From: Glaucostegus cemiculus
Taxonomy: Eukaryota
Assembly: GCA_976551045.1 (NCBI GenBank)
Contig: CDPCPM010000022.1
Span: 1,798,001 to 1,862,000, forward strand
DNA length: 64,000 bases
Direction of reading: 5' to 3'
A program made the translations under genes and the position numbers. The number at the start of each line of letters is the position of its first letter. Positions within the stretch are counted from its first letter, which is position 1. Below, one piece after another: positions 14,901 through 38,900 of the stretch. Under the pieces are notes generated by a model that saw only the letters and a list, made by a program, of their open reading frames with translations, was not told where the DNA came from and searched no databases.

Positions 14901-17900
14901 TAAAATGTGTTTTACCTCATAGATTTACAGAACAAATGCCTATGCACCTGAATGGAACTTAAACAATTATACTGTTCTAATATGCATGCTGCTTGCTAAT
15001 ACTGTGGTTTATTTTCTGTAGCAATACTACGCAAACAGAGGCCAGCAACAGAATAGTGCTTCCAGGGTTCAGAGTAGTGCAGCGACTCGACCTGTGGCCT
15101 CTGCTACCCATGTCTACCAACCTGGCTCACAGACTATTATGATGATGACAACACAACAGATACCTGCATATCAGTCACAAGGACCTTATTATGTTCCAAG
15201 CCAGGCAAGAACCTTCTCAAAATGGGCATATTTTAATCTTTTGGGATACAGTTAGTTTTCAGAAACTTTACTTTGACTGTCGTCTAATTAATAGCTGTAG
15301 CAAAAATATGCTTATAATCATAGTTGAAACCCTGTCCTGTTAAGAAAACAAAATTTCATTGTAAATTTCCATTAAGAATGCATTTATCCGTCAATCTTTT
15401 GTTCAATTTTGAGGTAAATGTAAAAATGAAAGACATTTGGGTAAGCTGCTAGATTTCCTCAGATGAGTCCTTGCTAATCCCATTAATGAGTAGCCTGAAC
15501 TGCATGAAATTGTCACAATTGCTTATTTACAATTTTTAATTTTTGTTAAGCTCCCAAATTCTGAAGTAATGCAATAAAGCAGTTTCCTCGTGGATCCTTG
15601 TATGCCTAATTCTGCCTAACTTTGCCCTTGGACGTTTCTGCATTTTATTTCCTTTTCATGATTCGACAGTGTTTATTTTCATTGTTTATTCTTAAACTAA
15701 TCCATAATTACAAATGTAACTTACATAAATCCCTAAACCATATGTTCCATTGAAACAAACTATAATGGCCTTTGTCAACTCATTGAATCTACATTATTTT
15801 TTTTCCACAGTTCTGACATTTTTTAAGAGGGAGCCTAATATATTGTTAATGCTATAGAAATGGCCCAAAGTGAGTCGCACCAAATCAGCATAGTTGTCTT
15901 GCTTTTTCCTCAAGGTCTGTAATTCAATTTTCCATTCATGTAGCATTTTCCACCAGCAATCCTTTCTCAGAGGCTCACAGTTATCTTCAACACCTTTTAA
16001 CAATACTAACGTGCATGGATTCACTTGATATTTTTCTCAAACGGCATACTTTGTATTTCTTGAGTATCTACTTGTTCCCAACTCTAATTTCTCATAGTTG
16101 GCAGTTTTTTTACCCTTGTCTGGATAGGTTGAGTAATTCAAGAATTTTAAAGTCCTAATTGGATCTTCAGGACATCAGATTATGTTTTTGTTTAAAAAGC
16201 AAAGCATTCTACAACTTTCTTCCAAGTGAATGCAAGCAGCTATTCTTTTAACCTATATTGCATGTGTACAAAGGACTGAACTTCTACGAGGTTGATTTAG
16301 CTTGAGCTTCTCAAAACAAAAGTTGCTTCATTAAATTGTTACTTTTTTTTAAGTGGTCATTGAGACAGTAAGTGATAATTGTTTTTACTTCCAGTTTCTC
16401 GTTCAGACTGAAAGTCTGTTGAGATTTGCTTGGTATAATGCATTTTTTTTTTAAAGTCATTCAACAGTGTAATCAAATATATCAACAATTTGCATCAATC
16501 AATAATGTTGGAGCATTAGAAGTAAATTTTTGCAAGTCAATTTATAGCCAGAAGTTAATGTTAAATTTGATTTTTTACAGTTTCGTTCCTCATTTGTACA
16601 GCCAACTCAGCAGTATCCTGTTCCACCTGGAACTGGATTTTATTCAAATCCAAATCCTGGGGAGTACCCTTATGGTAAGATATTTGTAACTGTTTAGTGG
16701 TCTTGCTTGTAGGCTGTTCAAGACATTGTTTAAATTGAGAAAAGAATTCGAATTTTGTACCACCATTAACAAATTGCTATTAGTTAATGTTCCTGTAAGA
16801 GAGCTTGCTGATATTAGCATTAAAGCATGTGCCATTTCATTGTAATCTGAATTCAAATTGAGCCCAAACTAACATAGTTGAAATTTCCTGTGTATATGTG
16901 CTTGTCCATCAACTGTTTCTAATTGTCTTGAATCCATAAAATTTGCAATGATTTGACTAGATCCTCCTCTGTATCCCTCTATTGCAAGTGTGTCCTTTAA
17001 TATGAAGGCCATAATCTAGATGCAAAATAACCAGGGAACAATATACTTGGAGCAACATACGTCTACACTTGTATCCATCCTCTTGTAACAAAGGCCAATA
17101 TATGTCTTCACTTGTTTGTATATCTGCATGTTAAGTATGTGGTTTGTTTATCCTGAATGCTCTCAACTTTCAGTTGCTCACCATTTGAAATATTCACTGC
17201 CTTTCAAAGTGGATGACCTCTCATTTTTCCACCTGTGCCCCCCATGAACCCTCCTGATAGTCCACATTGCCACTTGTGTTTATGTAATTGGCAAACTATC
17301 TTCTACTTTATTCCTTCAATCCGAATCAATTAAGCAGCTAATGTTAAGCAGCCATTTTGACTCTGCCTAATCCTTCCATTGCTTTCTAAGTTCCCTGTTA
17401 TCATTTCCTTGTTATATATTCAGGTATTTTCTAACTGGTGTAGCGTGCAGGCTCCTCGTGGACAGTGGCCGCAGTTGGGCCAGGTTTGCTGGCGCTGTGG
17501 TGGCGTTGTGCTAGCCGCTGCGCTACAGTGCCTGCCCCTAGCACTTTGTGCATAATACACTCTTTCTTGCCGACATCCCATTTCCATCTGCCGTACCAGC
17601 ATTCTTGATTTTTGTGCGTCATCGAGAAGATTTCTGCATACAAAGGTTTTGGGCAGATTTTTCTTCAACAAAATTATCCCATTTGAATGCTGCAAGTGAG
17701 TGCCGCATCTCAGTGCATTTCAGACCCTCACTTCTGCCATATCAAAATGGTTTCCTTACACCATTTCTAGTTCTTCGTCTTCCAATGAAAATGGTTTCTT
17801 TTCCTTTGTGACTGATGTGTGTGCAAACTGAAAAATGCACCGCGAAGCATTTTTTTCTACCCTTTGTGATTTTTAAAAGCCTCTGTCAGATCTCCTCATA

Positions 17901-20900
17901 ACTGCTGAGAAGAATAGCCCAACTTGTTGGCACACAGGTAACTCCTGAAATAATTTTAGGAAATGGCTCCTCTCAATTTGAAGGCAGAATACAAGGTTAA
18001 CTGCAGGACTCTTAGCAGTGTGGAGGAACAGAGGGATCTTGGGATCCAAGTCCATAGATCCCTCAAGGTTGCCGCTCAGGTTGATAGACACATGAATGAT
18101 AGAGGAATGGAGGGCAATGTGGAAGGGAAGGGTTAGATAGAACTTGGAGCAGGATAAAATGTCAGCACAACATGGTGGGCTGAAGGGCCTGTACTGTGCT
18201 GTAATGTTTTGTGTTCTAAGAAGGCATATGGTGTATTGGCCTTCATTAGTCGGGGTATTGAGTTCAAGAGCCATGAGATGATGTTGCAGCTCTATAGAAC
18301 TCTGGTTAGACCATATTTGGAGTATTGTGTTCAGTTCTGGTCGCCTCATTATAGGAAGGATGTGGAAGCTTTAGACAGAGTACAGAGGAGATTTACCACA
18401 ATGCTGCCTGGATTGGTGAGCATGTCTTATGAGGATAGGTTGAGCAAGCCAAGGCTTTTCTCTTTGGAGAGAAGGAGGATGAGAGGTGACTTGATAAAGG
18501 TGTACAGGAGGCATAGATTGAGTGGGTAGTCAAGAGACTTTTTTTCTCAGGGTGACAATGGCTAACACGAGGAGGCATAATTTTAAGGTGATTGGAGGAA
18601 GGTATAAGGGGGATGTGGGGTAAGTTTTTTACACAGATATTGGGGGTGTGTTGAATGCACTGCCAGTAGAGATTGTGGACGCAGACTCATTAGGAACATT
18701 TAGAGACTCTTAGACACATGATTGGTAGAAGAATGGAGGGTGATGTGGGAGGGAAAGGTTAGATAGATCTTAGAGCAGAATAAAATGTCAGTACAACATT
18801 GTGGGCTGAAGGGACTGTACTGTGCTGTTATGATCTATATGGTGTCTTGTTTTGTTTGATCCTTGCTATTTGCCCATCTCCAGGAACCATCCTAAAATTT
18901 AGGAAGATGACATCCAATGCAGCTATCATTTTCAAACCCTTAAAATGTAGATAATCAGACCATGGGGATTTTTTGTCCCACAGGTCCATATTTAAATTTC
19001 AATATCACCTTGCCTTTTCTGTTGAACTTCCTAAATATTCCCTCAACAGAAACCTTCAACCAACTCTCCCATTAGTTTCAAACCTTATATAGTCCTACTC
19101 ATTCAATTAGTCATGTCATAGAAGCAGCATAAAAACAGGCTTTTCAGCTGTGTGTGTGCCAACCATTGACCACCCATTTGCATTAATCCCATGTTTTATT
19201 CTCCCCACATTCTCATCAACTCTTTTCCCCTCCCCCTCTCCCCCCCTCAGTTTCTAGCACTAGGGGAAATTTACAGTCGCCAATTAACTTATCAACCAGC
19301 ATGGTATATGGGAGGAATTCAGAGCACCCAGAGAAAACACGCAAATTCTACATGCGGCAACCAAAATTGGGATTGAACCTGTGAGTCAGTGGCTCTACTA
19401 ATTTCACCACAGTGCTGTGATATGCTCTGATGCTGATCTCAGTCTGATTTTTAGTAAAGCCCATCCCAACAGAACAACAGTAGTGGCGTTTGTGCCCCAT
19501 GAATTGATACCCATTTCCACCACACCAGATGCACTTAAATTTTCTGATTTTGTTTACCAGTGCCAATTTGAACATGGCTTGGATGGGAACTCAGAAATTA
19601 TTTTTGTGGTTCATAATTTTTGGGCTATAGTTGCTGATAATCCTTCTGCACAACTGCTCCTTTTTTTTTACTCCTATCATTAGTAGGAATATAGCTAACT
19701 TGTTCTGTTTTTCATTTTTGAAACTGCACTGCTGGTTCTGAATTGTGCATTTCATAAACCACAATGCTATTTTATGTAATATTGAGCCCAAATTTTCTGC
19801 AATGAACACCAAATATTGATGTTTGAACCCCATCTACATAAGGCTCCATTGTTATTTTATGGGTCCATCCGTACCATTCTACTGGATTTTTCTAGTTTAT
19901 CTAGCAGCTTTTTTTGAAGTGTATACTAACCTAGAATCAAGATTGAAATGTCAGGGAGAGGGTAGTTGAGGTTTGTTTTCAAATCTTATTGCAGCATTAC
20001 ATCAATGAATTCTGCTAGAGCCCAGCAAATGACATATTTATACTTGATCAGATTTCATTGGGGAGAATGTAATACTGATGTAAAAACTTAGTTCTGCTTT
20101 TTGCTTCCAGTAAAAGCAGAAATGCTGTTTTCAGATACCAGTCCTAATGCATGGTTTAGTGCCAGATAACATTTAGTGTCATGTGGTTTGTCATAATGGT
20201 GCAACTGTTTTGCAAAGGTAGATATATTAAGATATGAAGATTAGGATTGCTGTTTGGGCTAATGTCTACCATTGTACATGATAGAAAATTTGTTTTTAAA
20301 AGTACACTGTTGGTGGGTTAAGGAAAATAGTGGTGTTTCAGTCTCCTGCACTATGGAATGGAAGAGCACAGATCTGTGTTCAATTTCATGACATGGTAAG
20401 TTCCTCCTAGTTTTTGTCAAGGTTGTAGATGTGCTATCACTGAAGGTTTTTATATGCATCAGACCAATCTGATGTATTTTCATAGACTGCACTAATACAG
20501 TCAGTCCTGCTTTCCCCATAATTTATGAATTACAAATTTTCATTTTATTTTCATGCATCAATATGGATTTTAATAGAAAATTTGTTATTGGAGATAGAGT
20601 AATACATTTTTATTCTAAAAACTTGTTTAAAATCAATTGGTATTGCAGTAGTTTGAAACCAGTGAGTTTTTGTAATTTGCAGCAAATTCAGTGCTTTGGG
20701 CATTTTTCTAATGTTTACAGAAATCCTGAATAAAGTTGATTTAGATTTTGGGTTTATTGATTATTAGTAACAATTGGCTTTGATCCAGTTTGTATTAGCA
20801 TCAAGAGGAATGAAATGTTTTTCTGACTTTTTAAAAATTCTCTTGGTAATTGCCTCTGGTTCATGCTTCCAAAACAGGTAGTTGTTGTCTAAATGTTTAT

Positions 20901-23900: not shown

Positions 23901-26900
23901 CTTGTTTGGAGTAGCCTTTGAAAAATGGATGTAGTAGAACACATGCACGTTGAAAAATGGAAGCTTGTACACGCCAATATGTTTGTTAAAGACTTTGTGT
24001 ATTAAAGCCAGTTCATCAGATATTAAAAGTAAAATCAAAGTTGAGGAGGATAGTGCAAGATGGGTTATATTAATAGATTATCTGTGGCTTATAGGTCAGT
24101 AAGGTCCAAGTTCCTACTCTGGTGTATGCTGAGAATTTTTGTAATATAAATTGTCAAGGACTTTCAATACTGAAAATTTTTGTAATACACTTGTAATATA
24201 GAATGATGTTCTGTTGATGGTGTTTATCAGATCTTCAGAGTTTTTGTATGTGAATTATGATTTTTAGATGAAGGGTCGTAGTCCTACAGCATAAATGGCC
24301 CTTTGGTCCACCATGTTCATGCTGACCAAACAACACATTTACCAGTATTTGGTCTGTAGCCTTCAGTGGGTTGGAAATTCATGTGGTCGATCAGGTGCTC
24401 TTCAAATGTTCTGAGTACCTGCCTCCACCACCACCCTGCTGAGCACATTCCAGAATGGGTGAAAACATTTTCCCCTGATCCCTTCTAACCCTCTTCCCCA
24501 CAGCAGAGGCATCTAAAATCAGGAGTAAGAGGTTCTCACTATCCACCTATCTATACTTCCCATAATTTTGTATACCTCCTCTCAGGTTCTCCTTGGCCTC
24601 CTCTGTTTCAAGGAGAAACTTAGCTTATCTAGTCTCTTGTTTCAAGGAGAAACTTAGTTTATCTAGTCTCTCCATATAATTGAAACATTTCATTCCAGGC
24701 AGTGTTCTGCTAAATCTCTACACCCTCACCAGTGCAAGCGTGACTTGCTTATAATGGTTAAGCTACTGGGGATTGTTGCGTATTACAGGAAGCAGTAAAC
24801 TAGTAAGAAATCAAAGATGCCACAGTGAAGTGAGAAAATTGGAAAAGGAAGTACTCCAGTTTTTGTGCTCACATTAGTGTGCCTCATGTTGCAGCCAGAA
24901 TTTATCATTCAACTATGAAAACTAAAAGTGGGTTAATGAAGCAATGGAAAATTGGTCCAAAACTTAAAGGAATTAATGTAAAATTCAAAGGGAAGACTTG
25001 TCCATCCATCCAAGATTTGGCTCCTGTGTTTGAAAAATAATTGTTTGTATTATAACTTTTAAAGTATTTCTTCAGATTACTGCTATGAATGCCTTCCAGC
25101 CGGTAAGCATTCGAAGGAAGGTGTTTGTAATCTGGATGTTAGATTGTTGAGAAGAGGGAAGTTGAGACTGCATTTTTCTTTTAAGGTTCGGGGTATAACA
25201 GCAATGTGTATTCTAATGTATATACCTGAGTTTTGGATTCTCAGTAGTTGGTGACTAATGTTTTTTTTCATTTTGGCCTTTCTGTAATTTCTTAGGTGAG
25301 AGGAGCCAATAACTTTTATCTATTTAAGTTTTTAGCATTAATTTGGTTTCCTACAAACTTTACGTTATTAATGATAATCTTAAAGTATCACTAAAGGGCG
25401 GCACGATAGTGTTTAGGGTGGCACAATAGCGTAGTGGTTAGCGCGACGCTGTTACAGCGCCAGTGATCGAGGTTCGATTCCCGTCGCTGACTGTAAGGAA
25501 TTTGTACATTCTCCCGTGTCTTTGTGGGTTTCCTCCGGGTGCTCCGGTTTCCTCCCACATTCTAAAAAGACGTACGGGTAGGTTAATCTGGGGGGAGGGG
25601 GGGGTTAAAATGGGCGGCGTGGACTCGTTGGGCTGAAGTGGCCTGTTACCACGCTGTAAATAAAATTTAAATTAAAGTAGATTTTTTCTAAAAAGGAAAC
25701 ATCAGAGGTTGACCGTTAAAGGATGGGCTATTCTTTATGTTGTTGAAACTTTGTCTCTTCAGGAACCTATTATCCAGCAACACAGGGAGTGCAACCATAT
25801 TCTGCGCCAGTGGCACCTGCCACTGTTATGATAAATCCAACACAGCCACAAATGCCTCCAAAAAGAGAACGTAAACAGGTAGGCCTGTGCTTAACTGCCA
25901 TTCTCTTGGGTTGGCTATTTCAATTTTTGCCAATGTTGAATTCTTCTCATTATTCTCAAGAAACTTAAAATTACAGGTAAATTGGGTAAATATTCAGTGA
26001 GATGTTTCTATTGAAAATTAACTGCCGTTCATGCTTCTAAATTAGCTGCTGTTGTATTCTAGTGGAGTTGATGCTGTGATTGATGTGAAAGTTCATGCTT
26101 TAATGCTCTCTATTTCCTGACAAAAGAATATAATTTACAATACCAATTTTAGTTTGACAGCAGAACTTTGGAGCCCTTCAGACCTGGAAAAGCATTTCAA
26201 AGAAACATTGTTTACTAGCAATAGTGCTTTAAGAGTACTCATTGTTTTTAGCATACTTAATTAAAAATGCAAATTACTTAATGTGTTTATTTAAAATGAA
26301 ATGGGTACTTTCTGTCCATGTGGGTTTTGAAAGAAGCAGTGCAGTCCTTGCATTTGTGATCTGCAGTCTGGCACAGGCAACGAGTTTGGATGGAGCCAGT
26401 CAGTTTGCCAGTGTATGTTGCTTTAGGATTTTACTGCATTAGGATGAAAGACTTGTTGATGCCCCAATTTCAAATTTCTGGTTTACACAGAGCCGAAATG
26501 TCAATTCTTTACCTTCAGGGTGAAAGCAGTCTGCCAGCAACATCTCATTTACTTGTTGACCTGGTTGCCCCATTCCTCCCCATGTTACACCTGAAGTGAA
26601 GCTGTACCTAGAATTGCAACAGTGATAACAGTTTGTAAATGAAAACCACAATATGGTAATTGCTCTCTTGCTGGAGATGATTGTCCAGCAGTAGGGACTG
26701 CAGTTAACAGATGCGTACTGGGACCTAGAGGTGTTTGTCTTGCTGTCACTGGGGATTTTACAGGCTCTGCCTGATCTGTACACTGGTTTCTTCCATAGTG
26801 TCATCCCTCCCCTCCCCCATTCACTAGAGCTTTAAAATTACACTATTGATTCTGGATCTTTTTAAATTCTGATAAATCAATGTACATAAAATTATCACTT

Positions 26901-29900: not shown

Positions 29901-32900
29901 GTGTTACAGCTGCTTTTTGTAGATCTTGTCAATTTGGATTTTAGCAGTATTTTTCATCTGCCACTGATTAAACCACAGATACCAATATGCAGAACTTCTA
30001 ATATTGGGCAGGCACAGTGGTGTAGCGGTTAGCGTAACACTTTATAGCGCCAGAGACCCGCGTTCAATTCTGGCCACTGTCTGTAAGGAGTTTGTAAGTT
30101 CTCCCCGTGGCTACGTGCGTTTCCTCCGGGTGCTCTGGTTTCCTCCCACATTCCAAAGAGACACAGGCTAGGAAGCTGCGGGCATGCTGTGTTGGCGCCG
30201 GAAGAGTGGTGAAACTTGCGAGCTGCCCCCAGAACAGTCTACGCAAAAGATGTATTTCACCGTGTGTTTCGATGTACATGTGACTAATACAGATCTTATT
30301 GAACTCGGATGCTCTGAGAACTGTGCTCTGATACACTCCAAATTAGATACAGAAATTGATGGAAATGGTGTTTTCTGTCAGCACCTGAAGAAAAATGGTT
30401 AACAAATTTAGATCGGTGACCTAATTAGAACTGGGAAAGTTAGGACTGAAACTTGTGCTAAGTTGCAGAGAAGGCTGGGGAAGGTTGGGGGGGGGGGCTG
30501 CGGGGTGGTATTCGTAATGGAGGCAGAAAGAACAAAACAGATGGTCTGTGACAGTTGACTAATGTCAACTGTGAGTGACTAATACAAGTGATATGGTTGA
30601 GGGGTGATGGTAAAGCTTAGTGATTAACGGAAGAAGACTTGAAGTTACCATTAGGAGGAGATAAACACATCTGAAATTTTCAGACAGGAGGGGGAAAAGA
30701 AGTTGCTACCTATTTACCTGAAATTGTTAAATCTGTTGCAATCTGAAGGTTGAAAGTGCCCAAGCAAAAGATGATATGCTGTTCCTTGAGTTTGCAATGA
30801 GTTTTGTTGAATCATTGTTGGAGGCTAAAACCTAAAGTCTGAGTGAGAGAGTTGGCAGTTCAAGTGACATACAACTGGAAGCTCTGTCACCATTGCATGC
30901 TCAATGGAGGTGTTCTGCAAAGCATTATCCACTTAGTAATGGATTTCCTTTGTGTAAAGAGGACCACATTGTGACTATCTAATACAGTATTTGTAATTGG
31001 AAATATCCAATGGTTTGAATTAAATTTTAAAATGCAAATAGCCTAAAACACATTCCCCCTGCTCAATTATGAAATTTTTGTAACATTTTAGTTATTTAAA
31101 ACCTAAATTACCATATTTTTCCTGGAATCAATATAATCACCATTCAAATGATTGAGCAGGATGTAATGTGCCACAGTATGCAATCCAGATTCATGGAGGC
31201 CAAAGTCACTTAGACCTGAGAAGATTGTAGCTAGGAATTTATCGCATGCTGATGCTTTCAAATGTTTGGGAGCTTGGAAGTACTTGAAGGCAAAACAGGC
31301 CATTATTTACTGTCCCATCTGATGCAAAAAGCAACTTCACTGCAGATCATCACATTTTTCCCCCCACTTCCAGTATAATTCTATGCTGCCATCTTCTGCA
31401 GCAAGGTTGTTACATAGCACTTTATCTTTGCTTTCTGTTCTTTTTGACATTGAAGGTTTGGACTTGTGTAGTGCCTTTTACCCCATATGTTTCTTAGTTC
31501 CATCAATACTGGATGTCATCCTGGCATTGTATTCACTATGTTGCAGTCCCGAGTTGGTGTTCCTCAAATCTACTTGAATGATTCTATTGTCACAAGCACT
31601 TTGATATCTTAGTTCATTTTGCAGCTAAAGAATCATGGCTTTGATCTGAAAGAAGTAAATTCTGAAATTTTTCTGACCATAGACTTAATTAACGTTGCTA
31701 ATCTCTTGTCTTGGAATTACTCGATTCTGCTGTTCAGAAGAATTTTATAATTTTAGACCATAAGACATAGGAACAGAATTAGGCAGTTTGGCGCATTGAG
31801 TCTGCTCCATCATGGCTGATTTATTTTTTCCCTCTCAACTCCATTCTCCTGCCTTCTCCCCATAACTTTTGATGCCCTTACTAATTGAGAACCTATCAGC
31901 CTCTGCTTTAAATATACCCAATGACTTGGCCTTCACAGCTGTCTGTGGCAATGAATTTCACAGATTCACCACCCCCGGCTAAATAAATTCCTCTTCATCT
32001 CTGTTCTAAAGAGACATCCTTTTCTGAGGCTGTGCCCTCTGGTCCTAGACTCTCCAACTGTTGGAAACCATCCTCTCCACTCTATCCAGGCCTTTCAATA
32101 TTCGGTAGGTTTCAATGGGATCCCCCCTCGTCCTTCTAAACTCCAGCAAGTACAGGCCCAGAACAACCAAACCCTCCTCGCATGTTAATCCCTTCATTCC
32201 CAGGATCATCCTTGTAAACCTCCTGGACCCCATCCCATTCCAGTAAAGCATTTGGATCTCAGTATTAAATTCTTGTTTTATATTCTAGTCCTCTTGAAAT
32301 GAATGCTAACATTGCTTTTGCCTTCCTTACTACTGACTCAACCTGCAACCATTTTGTTCGGGTGTTGTCAGAAAACCAGTTAGCAATTTATGAAGGTTTG
32401 ATTAGCTTGGTTAAATTTTTTGGGAATGATAGATGAGGTATTTGATACTCACATAGATTCTAGCTGGACCTTCAACAAGAACAAGCCCTACCTGCAGTGG
32501 AAGAAAAGGACAGCTTAGCAACTAGCTTTCAAAACTGTCAAAAACTTAATTGTTTCATTAGTTTTATTTAGATTTGAATTAAATGAATGAAACACTTAAA
32601 GGCTTAAATCACTGAAATACTTAAGTGTTTAAACAATAAATTCAGAACATGAGTAATTGATATACTGGTATGTTTTTAACAGTGCAATTAAAACTTTTTT
32701 AATTGCTCAACAGCCATAGCTATTTTCTTTGGAAAATAGGAGGCTGATGAGACATAATCAGTGTATAAAATTGAAAGGTCTAGAATGGATAGGAAGGACT
32801 GATTTCCTTTAGCAGAATTCGCCATAACTGTGGGACTGGTAGGAAAAATTGTAGGTGGTAATGCTAAAGTGACATTAATGTTTTTTCGTTACTTGACAAT

Positions 32901-35900
32901 GTTAGGTCAGTAACCATATGCCTAGCACTAGTTTAACATTATTTAAATGCTGTCCTGTCAAGCTCCATAATCAGGGTGTTTGGGAATATGGCTACATTAT
33001 TATTCAGATGTTGAATTTAACTGAAAAACTAAAAAAAATATATAAAATATTGCTAAGCAATTTCCCTTTGTTCATATTAACTCATTAGCTAATTAAGATT
33101 CCAGCTCTATCCAGTTTCATTTACAGGCAGCCGCCAGGTTACAATAGGGTTCCATTCCTGAGAACTGTTTGTAACCTGAACTGCTTAAGTTAGAAATGAA
33201 TAAAAACTGTGGGAGAGGATCATGTAAATATCTGCAATGGGAGAGCATGCAGATGTGGGAAGAGTGACTGACAGTGCCTCTGTGCTCCCAGCTCTGCTCA
33301 TCTGGGGTATGAAGGAGGAGAAGGCATGTGGAAATTATCCCTTCCCACCTAGCAGAAGATGACTGCAGCCGACAAATCCATCCTGCAGTCTCCCAAAGCT
33401 TGTCTGTGTGTACGGGGTGTCCGCAAGTTGGGCATTCATATCCAGGAGAGGGAACTGTAAGATGGGATTGTAATAGGGGATGCACAAGGATGCTACTGAA
33501 ATGGAAAATTATTTAGCTGTAAAGAAATGTTATGAATAGACTGAGGTGGCTGTTTTGGAACAGGGGTAAGAGGTGTTTGCATAAGTTATAAGATATGTAT
33601 GGAGTGAATAGGAAGAAACTATTTCTGTGATCAGATGGATTGAATGTCAGTGGTTTAAAATAACAGGTAGAAGGATTAGAGGGGAATGGGGAATTCTTTT
33701 TAACCCAGAGGGTGAGAAAGGGTCTGGTACTGTAACCTGAATATGTGATGGAGGTGGAAACCGTCACATTTAAAAGTACTTGAAGAGATATGATCTGCAG
33801 GGTTAAGGACCAAATGCTAGAAGATAGGTTTAGGCTGGCTGGCTTTTTGTTCAATGTGGATCCAATTAGCTGAATAGTCTCCATTTGTGTTGCAAGTTTT
33901 CGGTGATTCTATGGAAAGCAGGGAATGAATTTTTTTTTTCAACCATTGAGAACTTCAGTGAATGCTGAATAATATTAACTGCTAAATAAATGTGTGCATA
34001 TGAAGTGTGCAAGTATATAGAGTCAAAGATACTATATGAGAACTGGCTCTGGCCCACTGAGGTGCTGACCGTCAACCACTCATTTGCACCTAATACTACA
34101 TTATCCCCACTCCCCTGCTGCTACCTGTGCTGCCAGAAATGATTCTGCTACCGAAATTGAAATGGTGTTACCGATGCTCCATCTCTGGCTATTTAGCAAT
34201 TTCTGTGGTGTTGACGTTGGTTTTTACTAGTGTACTTTTTGCAGCTGAAATCTGCTTCAAATCTCTTAAGGAAAGCTACAATCTTTGAAATTTTAAATGG
34301 GCATCAAATTATTTGGAGGGAATGTAAACTGGATATTAATTACACATTTATCAGTCTTCTGTATTTTCTTGTATAACAGTCTGCAGGAAGTTTAGAAGGA
34401 GGTGGTGCTGTACAGGCAAATGGAGAAAGTCCTCATCCAGTACCAGTTGTCATCCGGCCAGGTAAGTTGAAAAGTTCAGCTGCTCAGTCCAGTATTAGAA
34501 TGAGGCAACAATTTAATTCTGCACAACAAAAGTTGATGGTATATTTTCAGTATGGATGGTCGTTAACCAAACTGCATAATTTTATTGAAATTTGTTTCTA
34601 AGTATATTTTTGTAACTAGTGATTTTTTTTTATATATTCAAGTTTTGGGAGAATTCTTCCAAGAAAATGTATCCAAATCAGTTACAAACTTGTACCCTAA
34701 ACTCTGAAGTTAGCATTGCTTAGACCTTGATTAATTTATCAGTACCAAATGTATTTACCATTTTGATGCTTGTGCTAGTTTCTTCAGTTATGTAGAGCAC
34801 TAGCTTACTGCAAACAACTGCAATTGGGTTAGCTACTACAGGACTGATACCATTTTCCTATACTCTTTTAATGGAGTTGTAAGTTATTTTCTTGCACTGA
34901 CTAGACATGTCTTTTGAACTGCAAAGTCTGTTTGAAATTTGGTAAATGTTTATTTCCTGGAACCCAAACTTAAAACATTTATATTAGATATTCTTCAGAG
35001 GCACAAGGTGGCTGCTGAAGTTTTAAACAATGTATTGGAGAAATCCTCAAGTTGTCATATACTCATGATATCATACGGTTGGATGTAAACTGCCTCAGTA
35101 CTGCCTTGACCTATGGTTTGGGGCTTATCTAGACAACTCATTGTCAGTTTTGAGTTGTATGTGATGTTCCTGGTGTTAAGTAATCTTTTTTGATTTTTTC
35201 CATAGATAAGCCCAAGTCTCCTGCAGTAATATCTAAACCAGTAGAAGAGCTGAACCAACTTGAGAAATCTATTTCACCTGAAATTGTAGAAAGCAAATCT
35301 GAAAATAACACTAAAGAAACAGACTCTGAAGAAGTCCAGGAAACTCCGATCACAGAGCCAGAGGACACTACAAACATTGCAATCCCTTGTGATGTGCCCG
35401 TGACAGATTCTGTGCCACCTGATGGTGATGATGATGACATGAGCCCTTTGGCAGAACCTATTTCTTTGCCACAGGAAGCTAAAAAAATGCAGAAAAGTGA
35501 AACAGAGGTACAAGAGCCAGAGAAAGAAGAGGCGATTCCAGATGAATCTAGCTCAAAAGACTTGACAGTGGAAAGTAATGGTTTTATGCCAACACAGGAA
35601 GTTGAGCCTAGTCAAGTACCTGAGCCTCCACTTGAACCCCCACTTGAACCTGTAATGGATTCGCCCATTGCACAACCTGAAGAACCGAAGTTGACTAATG
35701 GACTGGAGCTTTCAATAGAGCAGGATTCGGAAGTTTCAGAAGCTCGGCAGGAATGTCACATCAGTCCCATTTCTGAGCCTGAAGCACCGAAATTTGAAGA
35801 GAATGAAGTNNNNNNNNNNNNNNNNNNNNNNNNNNNNNNNNNNNNNNNNNNNNNNNNNNNNNNNNNNNNNNNNNNNNNNNNNNNNNNNNNNNNNNNNNNN

Positions 35901-38900
35901 NNNNNNNNNNNNNNNNNNNNNNNNNNNNNNNNNNNNNNNNNNNNNNNNNNNNNNNNNNNNNNNNNNNNNNNNNNNNNNNNNNNNNNNNNNNNNNNNNNNN
36001 NNNNNNNNNNNNNNNNNNNNNNNNNNNNNNNNNNNNNNNNNNNNNNNNNNNNNNNNNNNNNNNNNNNNNNNNNNNNNNNNNNNNNNNNNNNNNNNNNNNN
36101 NNNNNNNNNNNNNNNNNNNNNNNNNNNNNNNNNNNNNNNNNNNNNNCAGGATGCCTCGCCATCAGCAGCTACTTTATCACAGACTAATGACAATTCTATG
36201 CAAGGTATTGGTAATAGATGTTGAGAGTATTGTACAGCATTGCAGAGAAAGTCTTATGTTAAGTATACGTGTTGATGTCAACTTAATCTCACTTGCATTT
36301 TGTAGGGATGTAGGTGGAAACAGCTGAGTTGAAGTTAAGTGCTATTATTTTAAATTCCTTAACTTCTCTCTGTGTCATGGAATGGAAGATTGAACAGGTT
36401 AGGACTTTATTCCTTGGAGTGTAGAAGAATGAGGGGAGATTTGATACAGGTTTTCAAAATTGAGGGACATAGACAGTTAAAGTAAGTAGGCTCTTTCCAC
36501 CTAGATCAGGAGAGATAAGTACGAGAGGACATGGCTTTAGGGTGAAAGGGGAAAGGTTTAGGGGGAACTACTTCACTCAGAGTGGTGGGAGTGTGGAACG
36601 GGCTGCCATCTGATGTAGTAAGTGTCGGCTCACTCTTGAGTTTTAAGAATAAATTGGATTGATACATGGACAGGAGAGGTCTGGAGGTTTATGGACTTGG
36701 GTGCAGGTAAATGGGACCAGCAGAATAACATTTCGGCACAGACTAGAAGGTCTGAAAGGCCTGTTTACTGTGCTGTAGTGTTCTATGGTTCTAACGAGTT
36801 TTGTGGTTTTGCAGGTGGTTTGACAAATAATGTTGCCTGCTTGTTGTCTTTCATACCTGGACATAAGCATTAGTATATTTTCCCAAGATCATTCTAGGTT
36901 TAAAAGGATTGTTTCAGCAAGATTTTCAGTTATTAATATTGGGTTCCCTTGTTTGAAACAAGTGTAAATGTATCCCTCAATTTGTGCTTCCTTTGCATTT
37001 CTAGATTTTGGTACAGTAAATCTTCTTTAATATATATTTAAACTATATGGAATATTGCCATGATTTCATTCAATGCTTAGTTGCACTAAGAATCTAGGTG
37101 AAGACCCTCGAGCTGCTGTTGTGGTAGAATGGCTGATGATTTACAATCATTAATGGAAGAGCAGTAAATGCCACATTTGAATTGTACTCCATTATGACAG
37201 ATATTTAAGGTACTATTTCATAAAGCTCAGTAAATATTTATCACAATCAGAAAGAGAAACCATCCAGGGTTGATAAGATCAAGGAAGACATTAAATCAAA
37301 AGCTAAAGCATGCAAAGTGGCAACGTCTAACGGTAGATTAGGTGACTGAATTTTTTAGGAACCAGCAGTAGAAGACCTAAGTAGCTAATAAAGCAGTAAA
37401 AAAATTAACTCAAGCTAAACTGGCATAAAATATCAAAACAAGCAGCAAGAACTTAATGGGTATATAAAAAGGAAGTTGTTGGGCAGGGTAAATATAGGAC
37501 ACCTGTGGAGTGAGACTGGGAAATTAATAATGGGAAGTAAAGAATTAATTTAAACTAATACTTGGCATCAGTCTTCACAGTTGAAAACTGCAAGCATTTC
37601 AAAGATAGTAGATATGTAAGCTTCAAATATTAGGGAAGAACTTGTAACGGTCCCAATCAGAAGGGCCAAAGTATTTGGGGGAGGGGGGAACTAATGGGCT
37701 TGAAGGCAGGAAGTCACCGACAAATGGTGTGCATTCCAGGGTTTTTTAAAAAGTGGGTGCAGAGATAGTATACCCATTGGTTGAAGTTTTTCAAAACTCA
37801 GGACTGGGAAACCTCAGATGTGACTTCCTTGTTCAAGAAGGGAGAGGCACAAAGCAAAAAAAAAGCCAGTTGATTTCTGTTGGAAAGATGCTAGAGTCTA
37901 TAATCAAGGAAAAAAAGTCATTCAGAAATGCTTAATGGTTTGGATACTTCACACTCTGCCCCCTCTAAGTTTGCTGCTGATGCAAATAGGTGGGAGGGCA
38001 TTAGTACAATAAGGATGTTTGGATTCTACATCAGGATATAGATGGGTTGAATGAGTGGGCAAAAACTTGGCAAATAAAGTTTAATGTAAGAAATAGTAAA
38101 TTTGTACAATTTGGTGGGAGGAATCAAAAGGCAGGGTATTTTCTAAATAGAGACAGACAAGTGATTGGAGCACACAAATCCAGGAGATGTCCTTCATAAA
38201 ACAGTTACGTTTAAGTCCAGCAGGTAGTTAGAAGGCAGATGGTACATTGGGCTTCATTGTTAGGGGTTGGAGTTGAAAAATAGAGAAGTAAAGGCAGCCT
38301 CTGGGTTCTAGGGGGGTTGCATTCCTAGAGAACAGTCCAGCTCATGACTTCTATAACATGAATCTCTGTCATCTATACATGCATCAAGAAATGAGAGTTG
38401 TAAGTTTTTCTTTTTTCACATAAATTCTATACGAGCAAATTGTATTCCATGTCATGAATCATTACCCAAAATTTTGAGAATTCCTTAAGGCCAAATTGTC
38501 GTTACCTGAACACATCCTGTGGGGATCACTAGTATTGTTACACTTTTATGGGATAACTGGTGAGGCCATGCCTAGAGTACTGTGCACAGCTTTAGTTCCC
38601 ATAAGAAAAGATCTTTTAGTATTGGGAGTCAGTCCAGAATGCCAATTCTTGTGATGACAGGATTGTCCTCTTGTGAGTAAATAAAGTTAGACTAGTTTGC
38701 AGTTTAAAATGAAGGGTGATCTTACTGAAACCTACAAAATCCTCAGGAGGTGTAACAGGGTAAATGTTGACAAATGGGATAGTCAAATGAGGAAACAGTA
38801 AGGTAAGGGGGCAGTCATTTAAAATATAGGAATTTTTTCTTTTAGAGCATGGCCTCTGGAATTCTCTACCCAGGAGAGTTGTGGAGACTAGATCACTGGA

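What the first reader, a model, noticed from the sequence alone, without database searches (positions are those of the whole stretch)
17441..17538. Antisense SINE with an ADAR-like A>G hypermutation signature in genomic DNA
Seen in the sequence: this ~98-nt segment is a SINE head on the minus strand. At 14 positions where both other in-window copies (25416 and 30006) have T, it has C. Examples are GCGTAG>GCGCAG, GGTTAG>GGCTAG, GTTCAATT>GCCCAACT and GAGTTTGTA>GAGCCTGCA. By my manual count only about 8 T remain, and only one clear A>G occurs on that strand. On the + (eif4g1 pre-mRNA) strand these are clustered A>G changes, mostly 3' of T or A, and the A in GAC is spared. Established: ADAR hyper-editing of inverted SINE duplexes gives clustered A>G and disfavours a 5' G, and ADARs can deaminate the DNA strand of RNA:DNA hybrids in vitro. 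Inference: the edits were written into the germline. One route is deamination of first-strand cDNA during retrotransposition, which predicts exactly T>C on the SINE sense strand. Another is retro-insertion or RNA-templated repair from edited pre-mRNA; a sense partner SINE lies in the same intron at 25396. Either would be an adenosine-based counterpart of APOBEC-type retroelement restriction. Other antisense SINEs here (4350, 19115) show no obvious such bias.
Basis: partly seen in the sequence, partly recalled or inferred. Interest (0 to 1): 0.85.

Follow-up and report, generated by a model that had tools for sequence, protein, structure and literature searches.

The report
ADAR-edited SINE fossilised in ray DNA
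A short piece of a jumping element in an intron of a ray or shark gene had about two thirds of its adenines changed to guanine on one strand, long ago and heritably, most likely because an RNA already edited by the enzyme ADAR was copied back into the genome by a LINE retrotransposon.

Summary
In the minus-strand SINE head at 17441-17538, 14 of 20 T sites shared by the two reference copies read C, against 7 of 51 changes at other sites (p 9e-6). Three other SINE copies (9 of 74) and the adjacent CR1 (6 of 54) show no such bias. It is not an assembly error: orthologous contigs from two related organisms, about 9% diverged, run through the element and show no G>A row where they are laid alone. 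So the changes are old and fixed in the germline. The anatomy favours RNA editing over cDNA deamination. The SINE lacks its 3' tail. It sits at the 5' end of a 1.4-kb + strand block that ends in a CR1 tail, seems to interrupt an older CR1, and is bounded by a 6-nt repeat. Best reading: CR1-primed retro-insertion of an ADAR-hyperedited host RNA, with the SINE as passenger. The same outcome was seen in L1-induced human cells (PMC11702581). The 5'-G avoidance is not significant, the block boundaries are only moderately supported, and nothing supports 'restriction'.

The parts
17444..17538 (-). 5' head of a tRNA-derived SINE, cut off after about 95 nt, with dense T>C on the SINE strand (A>G on +). 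The B-box-like stretch near 17474-17480 carries three of the changes (B-box motif recalled). 17441-17443 is junction sequence of uncertain origin.
   Evidence: orthologues and family letters
17436..17441 (+). Left copy of a candidate 6-nt target-site duplication or microhomology (TGGTGT); reads A at 17440 in the orthologues
17539..17960 (-). Flank upstream of the SINE head: decayed antisense CR1 3' piece (17907-17711 = ORF2 aa 839-904). Not A-depleted (25% A). Present as 2-3 loci in relatives; one paralogous contig in organism C covers 17503-17689, that is SINE head plus this flank.
   Evidence: score 50 vs shuffle max 37 of 12 shuffles; table 8
17975..18839 (+). Sense CR1 3' fragment (ORF2 aa 714-918) with 3' tail; an extra tail piece (about 18085-18217) lies inside it. 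No A>G excess (6 of 54 A sites).
18840..18845 (+). Right copy of the candidate 6-nt repeat, directly after the CR1 tail
17011..17443 (-). Older antisense CR1 that forms the left flank and probable target (aa 759-789 at 17101-17011; aa about 505-543 at 17443-17351)
   Evidence: multi-copy depth
18858..18974 (-). Probable continuation of the older CR1 after the block (aa 445-491)
   Evidence: score 33.7, 0 of 300 shuffles reach it, but 5 of 768 window tiles do; not found by the unrestricted searches
25414..25680 (+).
30006..30290 (+). Second sense copy (comparator), next intron but one
16578..16685 (+). eIF4G1-like exon upstream of the intron
25762..25881 (+). eIF4G1-like exon downstream of the intron

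Best explanation
The element is a fossil of ADAR hyper-editing on RNA. A + strand transcript carried an antisense SINE, a decayed antisense CR1 piece and a sense CR1 3' end; it was either a read-through RNA from another locus or a template-switch chimera. The antisense SINE paired with a sense SINE copy and ADAR turned about two thirds of its A's into inosine. CR1 reverse transcriptase primed at the CR1 tail, copied the RNA (inosine read as G) into an older CR1 inside the eif4g1 intron of a germline cell, and stopped about 95 nt into the edited SINE, which is why only the head survives. CpG decay later eroded some sites. SHOWN: one-type, one-strand cluster; confinement to the SINE; presence in orthologues; missing SINE 3' part; a CR1 tail on + downstream. 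INFERRED: ADAR as the enzyme, RNA as the substrate, a single insertion event, the source locus and the pairing partner. Odds: about 0.75 for 'ADAR-edited RNA reverse-transcribed into the germline', about 0.5 for the exact single-block anatomy.
For: Spectrum and strand: 14 of 20 T>C vs 1 of 14 A>G (binomial p 0.004). Confinement: right flank 25% A, adjacent CR1 A>G 6 of 54 (p 1.8e-6), other SINE copies 9 of 74. Germline fixation: one contig in each of X3, X5 and X8 runs unbroken through the element. In X3 it has 44 differing letters, 32 listed; none of the listed ones is G>A at an edited site, and the 12 unlisted match the 12.2 expected from the hidden flank alone. Family copies in the same runs show T at these sites in loose-end consensuses (table 7). 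At 17448-17449 the window and the orthologues differ as two opposite CpG decays of one extra edited site would predict (inference). Anatomy: the SINE's 3' part is absent and the orthologue has no large insertion there (487 letters over 501 positions); CR1 protein coordinates run aa 505-543 left of the block and aa 445-491 right of it; a 6-nt repeat sits at both ends; a paralogous contig joins SINE head and flank (X8 piece 30). Precedent: 3 of 235 L1-driven pseudogene insertions had clustered T>C limited to inverted Alus, ascribed to ADAR (PMC11702581, section 7). Hyper-edited RNA reads are abundant in elephant shark brain (PMC5625713, table passage).
Against: 5'-G depletion, the main ADAR context marker (PMC4365171), is not significant (1 of 3 vs 13 of 17, p 0.20). 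About 68-70% conversion exceeds the 'nearly 50%' quoted for avian retroviral hyper-editing (PMC12925331). The CR1 continuation after the block appears only in a targeted test and 5 of 768 tiles score as high; searches missed it. The 6-nt repeat is short, occurs 2 times in 17540-19200, overlaps tail-like sequence, and is imperfect in the orthologues. The paralogue's SINE letters were not visible, and in organism B no paralogue was laid upstream of 17574. 58 rows's difference table were not shown. No run of the window's own species was found (best share 0.29). This is a single locus.
Confidence: 0.6

Rival explanations
1. In-place rewriting: the SINE was already in this intron, was ADAR-edited in eif4g1 pre-mRNA by pairing with a sense copy (25414 or 30006), and the edited RNA templated repair of the locus.
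For: A>G lies on the host gene's sense strand and a sense copy is 7.9 kb away in the same intron. The present element pairs well in silico with both sense heads (-125 and -137 kcal/mol).
Against: The polarity match has a 1 in 2 chance. The loss of the SINE's 3' part and the duplicated flank need extra events. G-U pairs inflate those duplex energies. The age of the partner copies was not tested.
Confidence: 0.12
2. Adenine deamination on DNA: the + strand of 17444-17960 is first-strand cDNA (for example a twin-primed inverted piece of an RNA that carried the SINE in sense, or the SINE's own cDNA) and ADAR or another deaminase acted on it in an RNA:DNA hybrid.
For: It predicts T>C on the SINE strand exactly. 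ADARs edit DNA in hybrids in model substrates (PMC12925331, passage). The SINE head and its flank are both inverted relative to the CR1 tail.
Against: It does not explain why the changes stop at the SINE's 5' edge while the flank keeps its A's. The SINE has no 3' tail of its own. The same review says it is unknown whether ADARs do this on retroviral hybrids. 5' inversions are typical of L1, not CR1 (recalled).
Confidence: 0.1
3. A non-deaminase burst: biased misincorporation by a reverse transcriptase or an error-prone repair polymerase over a short patch at the 5' junction of the insertion.
For: The cluster abuts the junction, context bias is weak, and the conversion rate is very high. Monotone hypermutation under skewed dNTP pools is known for retroviral RT (recalled, not checked).
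Against: The patch coincides with the repeat able to form dsRNA, and C and T content are unchanged. 5' T/A sites tend to be preferred (11 of 12 vs 2 of 6).
Confidence: 0.1
4. Ordinary causes: a C-rich SINE subfamily, GC-biased gene conversion, transcription-coupled A>G bias, or an assembly error.
For: No genome-wide consensus could be built (no genome held). In X8 one further contig (depth 11.9) is laid on part of 17448-17463 and its letters were not shown.
Against: Only the orthologous contig is laid at 17440-17463 in X3 and X5 at 80% likeness. Changes are one-stranded. Neighbouring repeats in the same gene are unbiased. Orthologues from 3 studies share the G's.
Confidence: 0.05

Closest known systems
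L1-driven processed-pseudogene insertions with ADAR-type clustered T>C in inverted Alus (PMC11702581; section 7 read, Fig. S8 not seen)
   Same: A LINE copies an edited host RNA into DNA; changes are of one type and limited to the SINE part.
   Different: Those are new insertions in cultured human cells (3 of 235), by L1 on mRNA 3' UTRs. This one is fixed in the germline, shared by relatives about 9% diverged, in a cartilaginous fish, and apparently primed at a CR1 tail.
ADAR A>G hypermutation recorded in retroviral DNA: RAV and ALV, HTLV-2, STLV-3 (PMC12925331, passages) and BLV 3' LTR clusters of about 70 bp (PMC8025556, passages)
   Same: A short, dense, one-strand A>G cluster carried from RNA into DNA by reverse transcription.
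   Different: Exogenous viruses in somatic cells, editing their own RNA; here a non-LTR passenger in a heritable intron.
APOBEC 'DNA editing' footprints in LTR retroelements of vertebrate genomes (PMC4866542, passages)
   Same: A deaminase footprint fixed in genomic copies of a retroelement.
   Different: G>A from C-to-U on cDNA, in LTR elements; that screen selected for G>A and left out non-LTR elements. Here A>G/T>C, probably made on RNA, with no sign of restriction.
HE1 V-SINE of sharks and rays with its partner LINE HER1 (named in PMC3747384 table and PMC4824008 passages)
   Same: tRNA-type head, multi-copy in an elasmobranch, beside CR1-type LINEs.
   Different: No published HE1 sequence was compared; the name is a lead from recall and the host clade.

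Membership tests
ADAR hyper-editing signature | Dense cluster of one mismatch type, A>G on one strand | tested here: met
   14 of 20 vs 1 of 14; strict 12 of 18
ADAR hyper-editing signature | G depleted 5' of edited sites | tested here: inconclusive
   1 of 3 vs 13 of 17, p 0.20; T/A vs C/G p 0.02-0.08
ADAR hyper-editing signature | G enriched 3' of edited sites | tested here: inconclusive
   2 of 3 sites with a 3' G are edited
ADAR hyper-editing signature | Limited to sequence that can form long dsRNA | tested here: met
   Confined to the SINE head; flank 25% A, CR1 6 of 54. The head has no special self-fold (z -0.55), so an outside partner is needed and was not identified.
ADAR hyper-editing signature | Edited RNA beside unedited DNA at the source | not testable with these tools
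   Source locus letters not visible; no genome held
LINE-primed (TPRT) retro-insertion | LINE 3' tail at the 3' end | tested here: met
   Sense CR1 aa 714-918 with tail ending about 18838
LINE-primed (TPRT) retro-insertion | Target-site duplication | tested here: inconclusive
   6-nt repeat at 17436 and 18840; also occurs at 18229; left copy differs in orthologues
LINE-primed (TPRT) retro-insertion | Target sequence continues on both sides | tested here: inconclusive
   aa 505-543 left, aa 445-491 right; 0 of 300 shuffles but 5 of 768 tiles
LINE-primed (TPRT) retro-insertion | A source locus and an empty site in an outgroup | tested here: inconclusive
   One paralogous contig covers 17503-17689 in X8; no empty site seen; X1 gave no orthologous cover
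Self-primed SINE insertion with cDNA deamination | SINE 3' tail present | tested here: not met
   Homology ends about 95 nt in; no large insertion in orthologues
APOBEC-type DNA editing | Strand-biased G>A clusters | tested here: not met
   G>A 3 of 22 shared G sites, T>C 14 of 20
TpA-specific duplex hypermutation (from earlier scan note e1-9889545) | TA steps changed on both strands | tested here: not met
   Only 4 of 14 edited sites have a 5' T, 7 have a 5' A; 1 A>G on the other strand
HE1 / V-SINE | tRNA-derived head, multi-copy in sharks and rays | tested here: inconclusive
   Multi-copy in relatives (depth 30-60 times single copy at 17492-17547); host gene closest to ray and shark eIF4G1; no tRNA or Rfam hit; A/B boxes judged from recall
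HE1 / V-SINE | 80-bp V domain and HER1-like 3' tail | not tested
   No published consensus sequence was available in the passages read; the edited copy ends before the central domain

The most novel reading that the evidence does not exclude
The + strand of the SINE head was the DNA strand of an RNA:DNA hybrid during CR1 reverse transcription (a twin-primed inverted piece), and ADAR deaminated its adenines directly. That would be heritable, in vivo A-to-I editing of retrotransposon cDNA in a vertebrate germline, an adenosine counterpart of APOBEC footprints, so far shown only on model substrates.
Probability: 0.1. Interest if true: 0.88.

Novelty: new variant of a known kind. Interest (0 to 1): 0.55.

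Why it matters
A 2016 review states that a role for ADAR editing in Alu subfamily evolution 'has not yet been determined' (PMC4982230, passage), and the large genomic screen for deaminase footprints selected only G>A in LTR elements (PMC4866542). This locus is a clean, datable case of A-to-I editing becoming heritable DNA sequence through a non-LTR route outside mammals. It suggests a simple screen: one-strand T>C/A>G clusters bounded by SINE edges at the 5' ends of retro-insertions. Such a screen would show how often germline RNA editing feeds back into genomes, whether edited duplexes stall LINE reverse transcriptase, and whether CR1 mobilises host RNAs through embedded tails. The mechanism itself has precedent in cells and retroviruses, and no function is implied for this copy.

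Tried and rejected
No whole genome is held, so no genome-wide consensus or screen was possible. Pattern scans for more SINE copies found 0 in viral contigs, 0 in metagenomes, and 1 chance bacterial match then 0 in genome contigs. Plasmids gave no match. CR1-guided locus fetches gave none in genome or viral contigs and 61 metagenome loci with no SINE or flank match. No RNA holder was listed, which is no evidence either way. Run X1 gave no orthologous cover of 17100-17930, which proves nothing. No tRNA gene or Rfam family in the window. Pfam found nothing in six frames of the right flank. The head does not fold better than shuffles (z -0.55); its 7-nt terminal inverted repeat is probably chance. 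A mixed bird and fish CR1 profile missed the old CR1 pieces at 6 bits and gave only weak hits. Rejected: assembly artefact, C-rich subfamily, GC-biased conversion, transcription-coupled bias, TpA-specific hypermutation, APOBEC editing. An endogenous MMTV with A>G excess was judged by its authors not to have ADAR context (PMC12548423, passage). Ten literature searches listed no report of a germline-fixed ADAR-edited SINE in a fish; the library lacks most subscription papers, so absence from print is not shown. Supplements were not read; Fig. S8 of PMC11702581 may bear on which strand was edited there.

Full report
Setting. The window holds an eIF4G1-like gene on the + strand. Its closest relatives are ray and shark proteins (80% to Mobula birostris over the 181-aa query, 8 hits in all). 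Exons map to 16578-16685 and 25762-25881 with none between, so the element at 17441 and the SINE copy at 25414 share one intron. No genome is held.

The observation. Aligned to copies 25416 and 30006, the minus strand of 17441-17538 has C at 14 of 20 shared T sites, G at 1 of 14 shared A sites, and changes at 7 of 51 non-T sites (p 8.7e-6). The two comparators have no T>C among their own unique changes (13 and 8 changes). On +, A falls to 8.4% and G rises to 37.9%, against 26.5% and 21-22% in the unedited heads, while C and T are unchanged. That implies about 17-18 of 26 A's converted (inference). Dropping two ambiguous sites (17443 at the junction, 17460 in a possible old CpG) leaves 12 of 18 (p 5e-5). 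Three other SINE copies show T>C at 9 of 74 sites (p 9e-7 against this copy). The adjacent CR1 shows A>G at 6 of 54 and G>A at 15 of 83. 5' T/A against C/G gives 11 of 12 vs 2 of 6 (p 0.02, or 0.06-0.08 in stricter versions; two ambiguous sites dropped; grouping chosen afterwards).

Is it real and old? No run of the same species was found; 10 of 11 listed runs hold part of 16300-17930, with shares 0.07-0.29. I laid 4 of the 11 on 17100-17930 at 80% likeness. X1 gave no orthologous cover. X3 and X5 (organism B, two studies) and X8 (organism C) each have one contig running unbroken through the element. In X3 it spans 17103-17603 with 44 other letters and 16 gaps. At 17440-17463 it is the only contig laid in X3 and X5. 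The listed differences there are at 17440, 17444, 17448, 17449 and 17463, and none is G>A at 17443, 17447, 17450, 17451, 17458 or 17460. The table hid 58 rows, but only 12 of the 44 differences are unlisted, fewer than the 14 sites, and the hidden high-depth flank alone should hold 12.2. So the orthologues share most or all of the G's. Loose ends of family copies in the same runs show T at the edited positions (table 7). At 17448-17449 the orthologues carry one more T>C and a neighbouring change, as expected if an edited CpG decayed on opposite strands in the two lineages (inference). This rules out a polishing error and makes a C-rich subfamily unlikely; one extra contig in X8 (depth 11.9) over part of this stretch was not resolved. 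About 9% divergence suggests an age of tens of millions of years in slow-evolving elasmobranchs (recalled rate, not computed).

Anatomy. The SINE stops after about 95 nt; its 3' part is missing here and in the orthologues (487 letters over 501 positions). A SINE inserting by its own tail loses 5' sequence, not 3' (established knowledge of TPRT; 3'-tail recognition in PMC3747384, passages). Read on +, the order is: edited antisense SINE head; a decayed antisense CR1 3' piece (17907-17711 = aa 839-904, score 50 vs a maximum of 37 in 12 shuffles); a sense CR1 3' end (aa 714-918) whose tail ends near 18838. The left flank is an older antisense CR1 (aa 759-789, score 62; aa 517-543, score 38 vs shuffle maximum 34). 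The 60 residues that should follow it align to 18974-18858 (aa 445-491, score 33.7; 0 of 300 shuffles, but 5 of 768 window tiles, reach it); unrestricted searches missed this. A 6-nt repeat lies at 17436 and 18840, and once more at 18229. In relatives the flank 17574-17902 is covered by 2-3 contigs each of about single-locus depth, and one X8 contig covers 17503-17689, joining SINE head and flank at another locus. In organism B no such contig was laid upstream of 17574. Together these point, with moderate strength, to one 1.4-kb insertion primed at the CR1 tail and truncated inside the edited SINE.

Mechanism. If the template was the + strand RNA, the changes are A>G on the RNA, which is what ADAR makes, and their limit to the SINE follows from pairing with a sense copy. 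The head has no special fold of its own (z -0.55), so the partner was external and is unidentified. I put 0.75 on 'ADAR-edited RNA reverse-transcribed into the germline' and 0.6 on the whole account. Rivals are in-place repair from eif4g1 pre-mRNA (0.12), deamination of a cDNA strand in a hybrid (0.10), a polymerase error burst (0.10) and ordinary causes (0.05). Against my reading: weak context, a conversion rate above the 'nearly 50%' quoted for avian retroviruses (PMC12925331, passages), unseen source letters, and one locus only.

Comparison with what is known. PMC11702581 (section 7 read; Fig. S8 not seen) found 3 of 235 L1-driven pseudogene insertions with clustered T>C limited to inverted Alus and ascribed them to ADAR. 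ADAR-type clusters are recorded in retroviral DNA (PMC12925331; PMC8025556; passages). Genomic screens for deaminase footprints selected G>A in LTR elements (PMC4866542) or treated A>G/T>C in DNA traces as background (PMC2873906; passages). Hyper-edited RNA is common in elephant shark brain (PMC5625713; passages). ADAR's context is from PMC4365171 (passages). PMC4982230 (passages) calls ADAR's role in Alu evolution undetermined. Passages of PMC4335370, PMC9148063, PMC5974252 and PMC13034634 added no germline case; PMC12548423 reports an A>G-rich endogenous MMTV without ADAR context. The name HE1 rests on PMC3747384 and PMC4824008 (passages) and recall; no sequence was compared. Ten searches listed no germline-fixed case in a SINE of a fish, within an open-access library. 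Earlier notes of this scan describe similar A>G fossils in L1 copies, a LINE-borne hairpin and a provirus in other genomes; they are unchecked leads, not support, and suggest the class recurs.

Verdict. Real, old and heritable; best read as an ADAR fossil carried in by CR1. It works like the L1/Alu cases seen in cells. It is not an APOBEC footprint and gives no evidence of restriction. New variant of a known kind; interest 0.55.

Noticed in passing
window 18085-18217: A second CR1 3'-tail piece, 88.5% like the tail at 18711-18832, sits inside the CR1 ORF between aa 752 and 753; a nested insertion or a template jump.
   Followed up: partly
window 17457-17458: A TA step on the SINE strand reads CG, the one place where both an A>G and a T>C fall together; also seen unchanged in the orthologues.
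   Followed up: partly
window 17100-17930 against runs X3, X5, X8: The window has T where relatives have C at 23-24 places but C where they have T at only 9-11, suggesting more C>T change in the window's lineage (some rows come from repeat copies).
   Followed up: no
window 17448-17463, run X8: A second contig (depth 11.9) is laid at 80% likeness on the most edited half of the head; its letters were not shown. It could be a second edited copy.
   Followed up: no
window about 35808-36144: A run of 337 N lies inside the large eIF4G1-like exon region.
   Followed up: no
P0051, P0096: Proteins 72-76% identical to the window's CR1 reverse transcriptase are filed under Klebsiella pneumoniae and Carnobacterium maltaromaticum, probably fish DNA in bacterial assemblies.
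   Followed up: no
window 25414-25440: The 5' end of this SINE copy looks locally duplicated (two similar head starts near 25397 and 25417).
   Followed up: no
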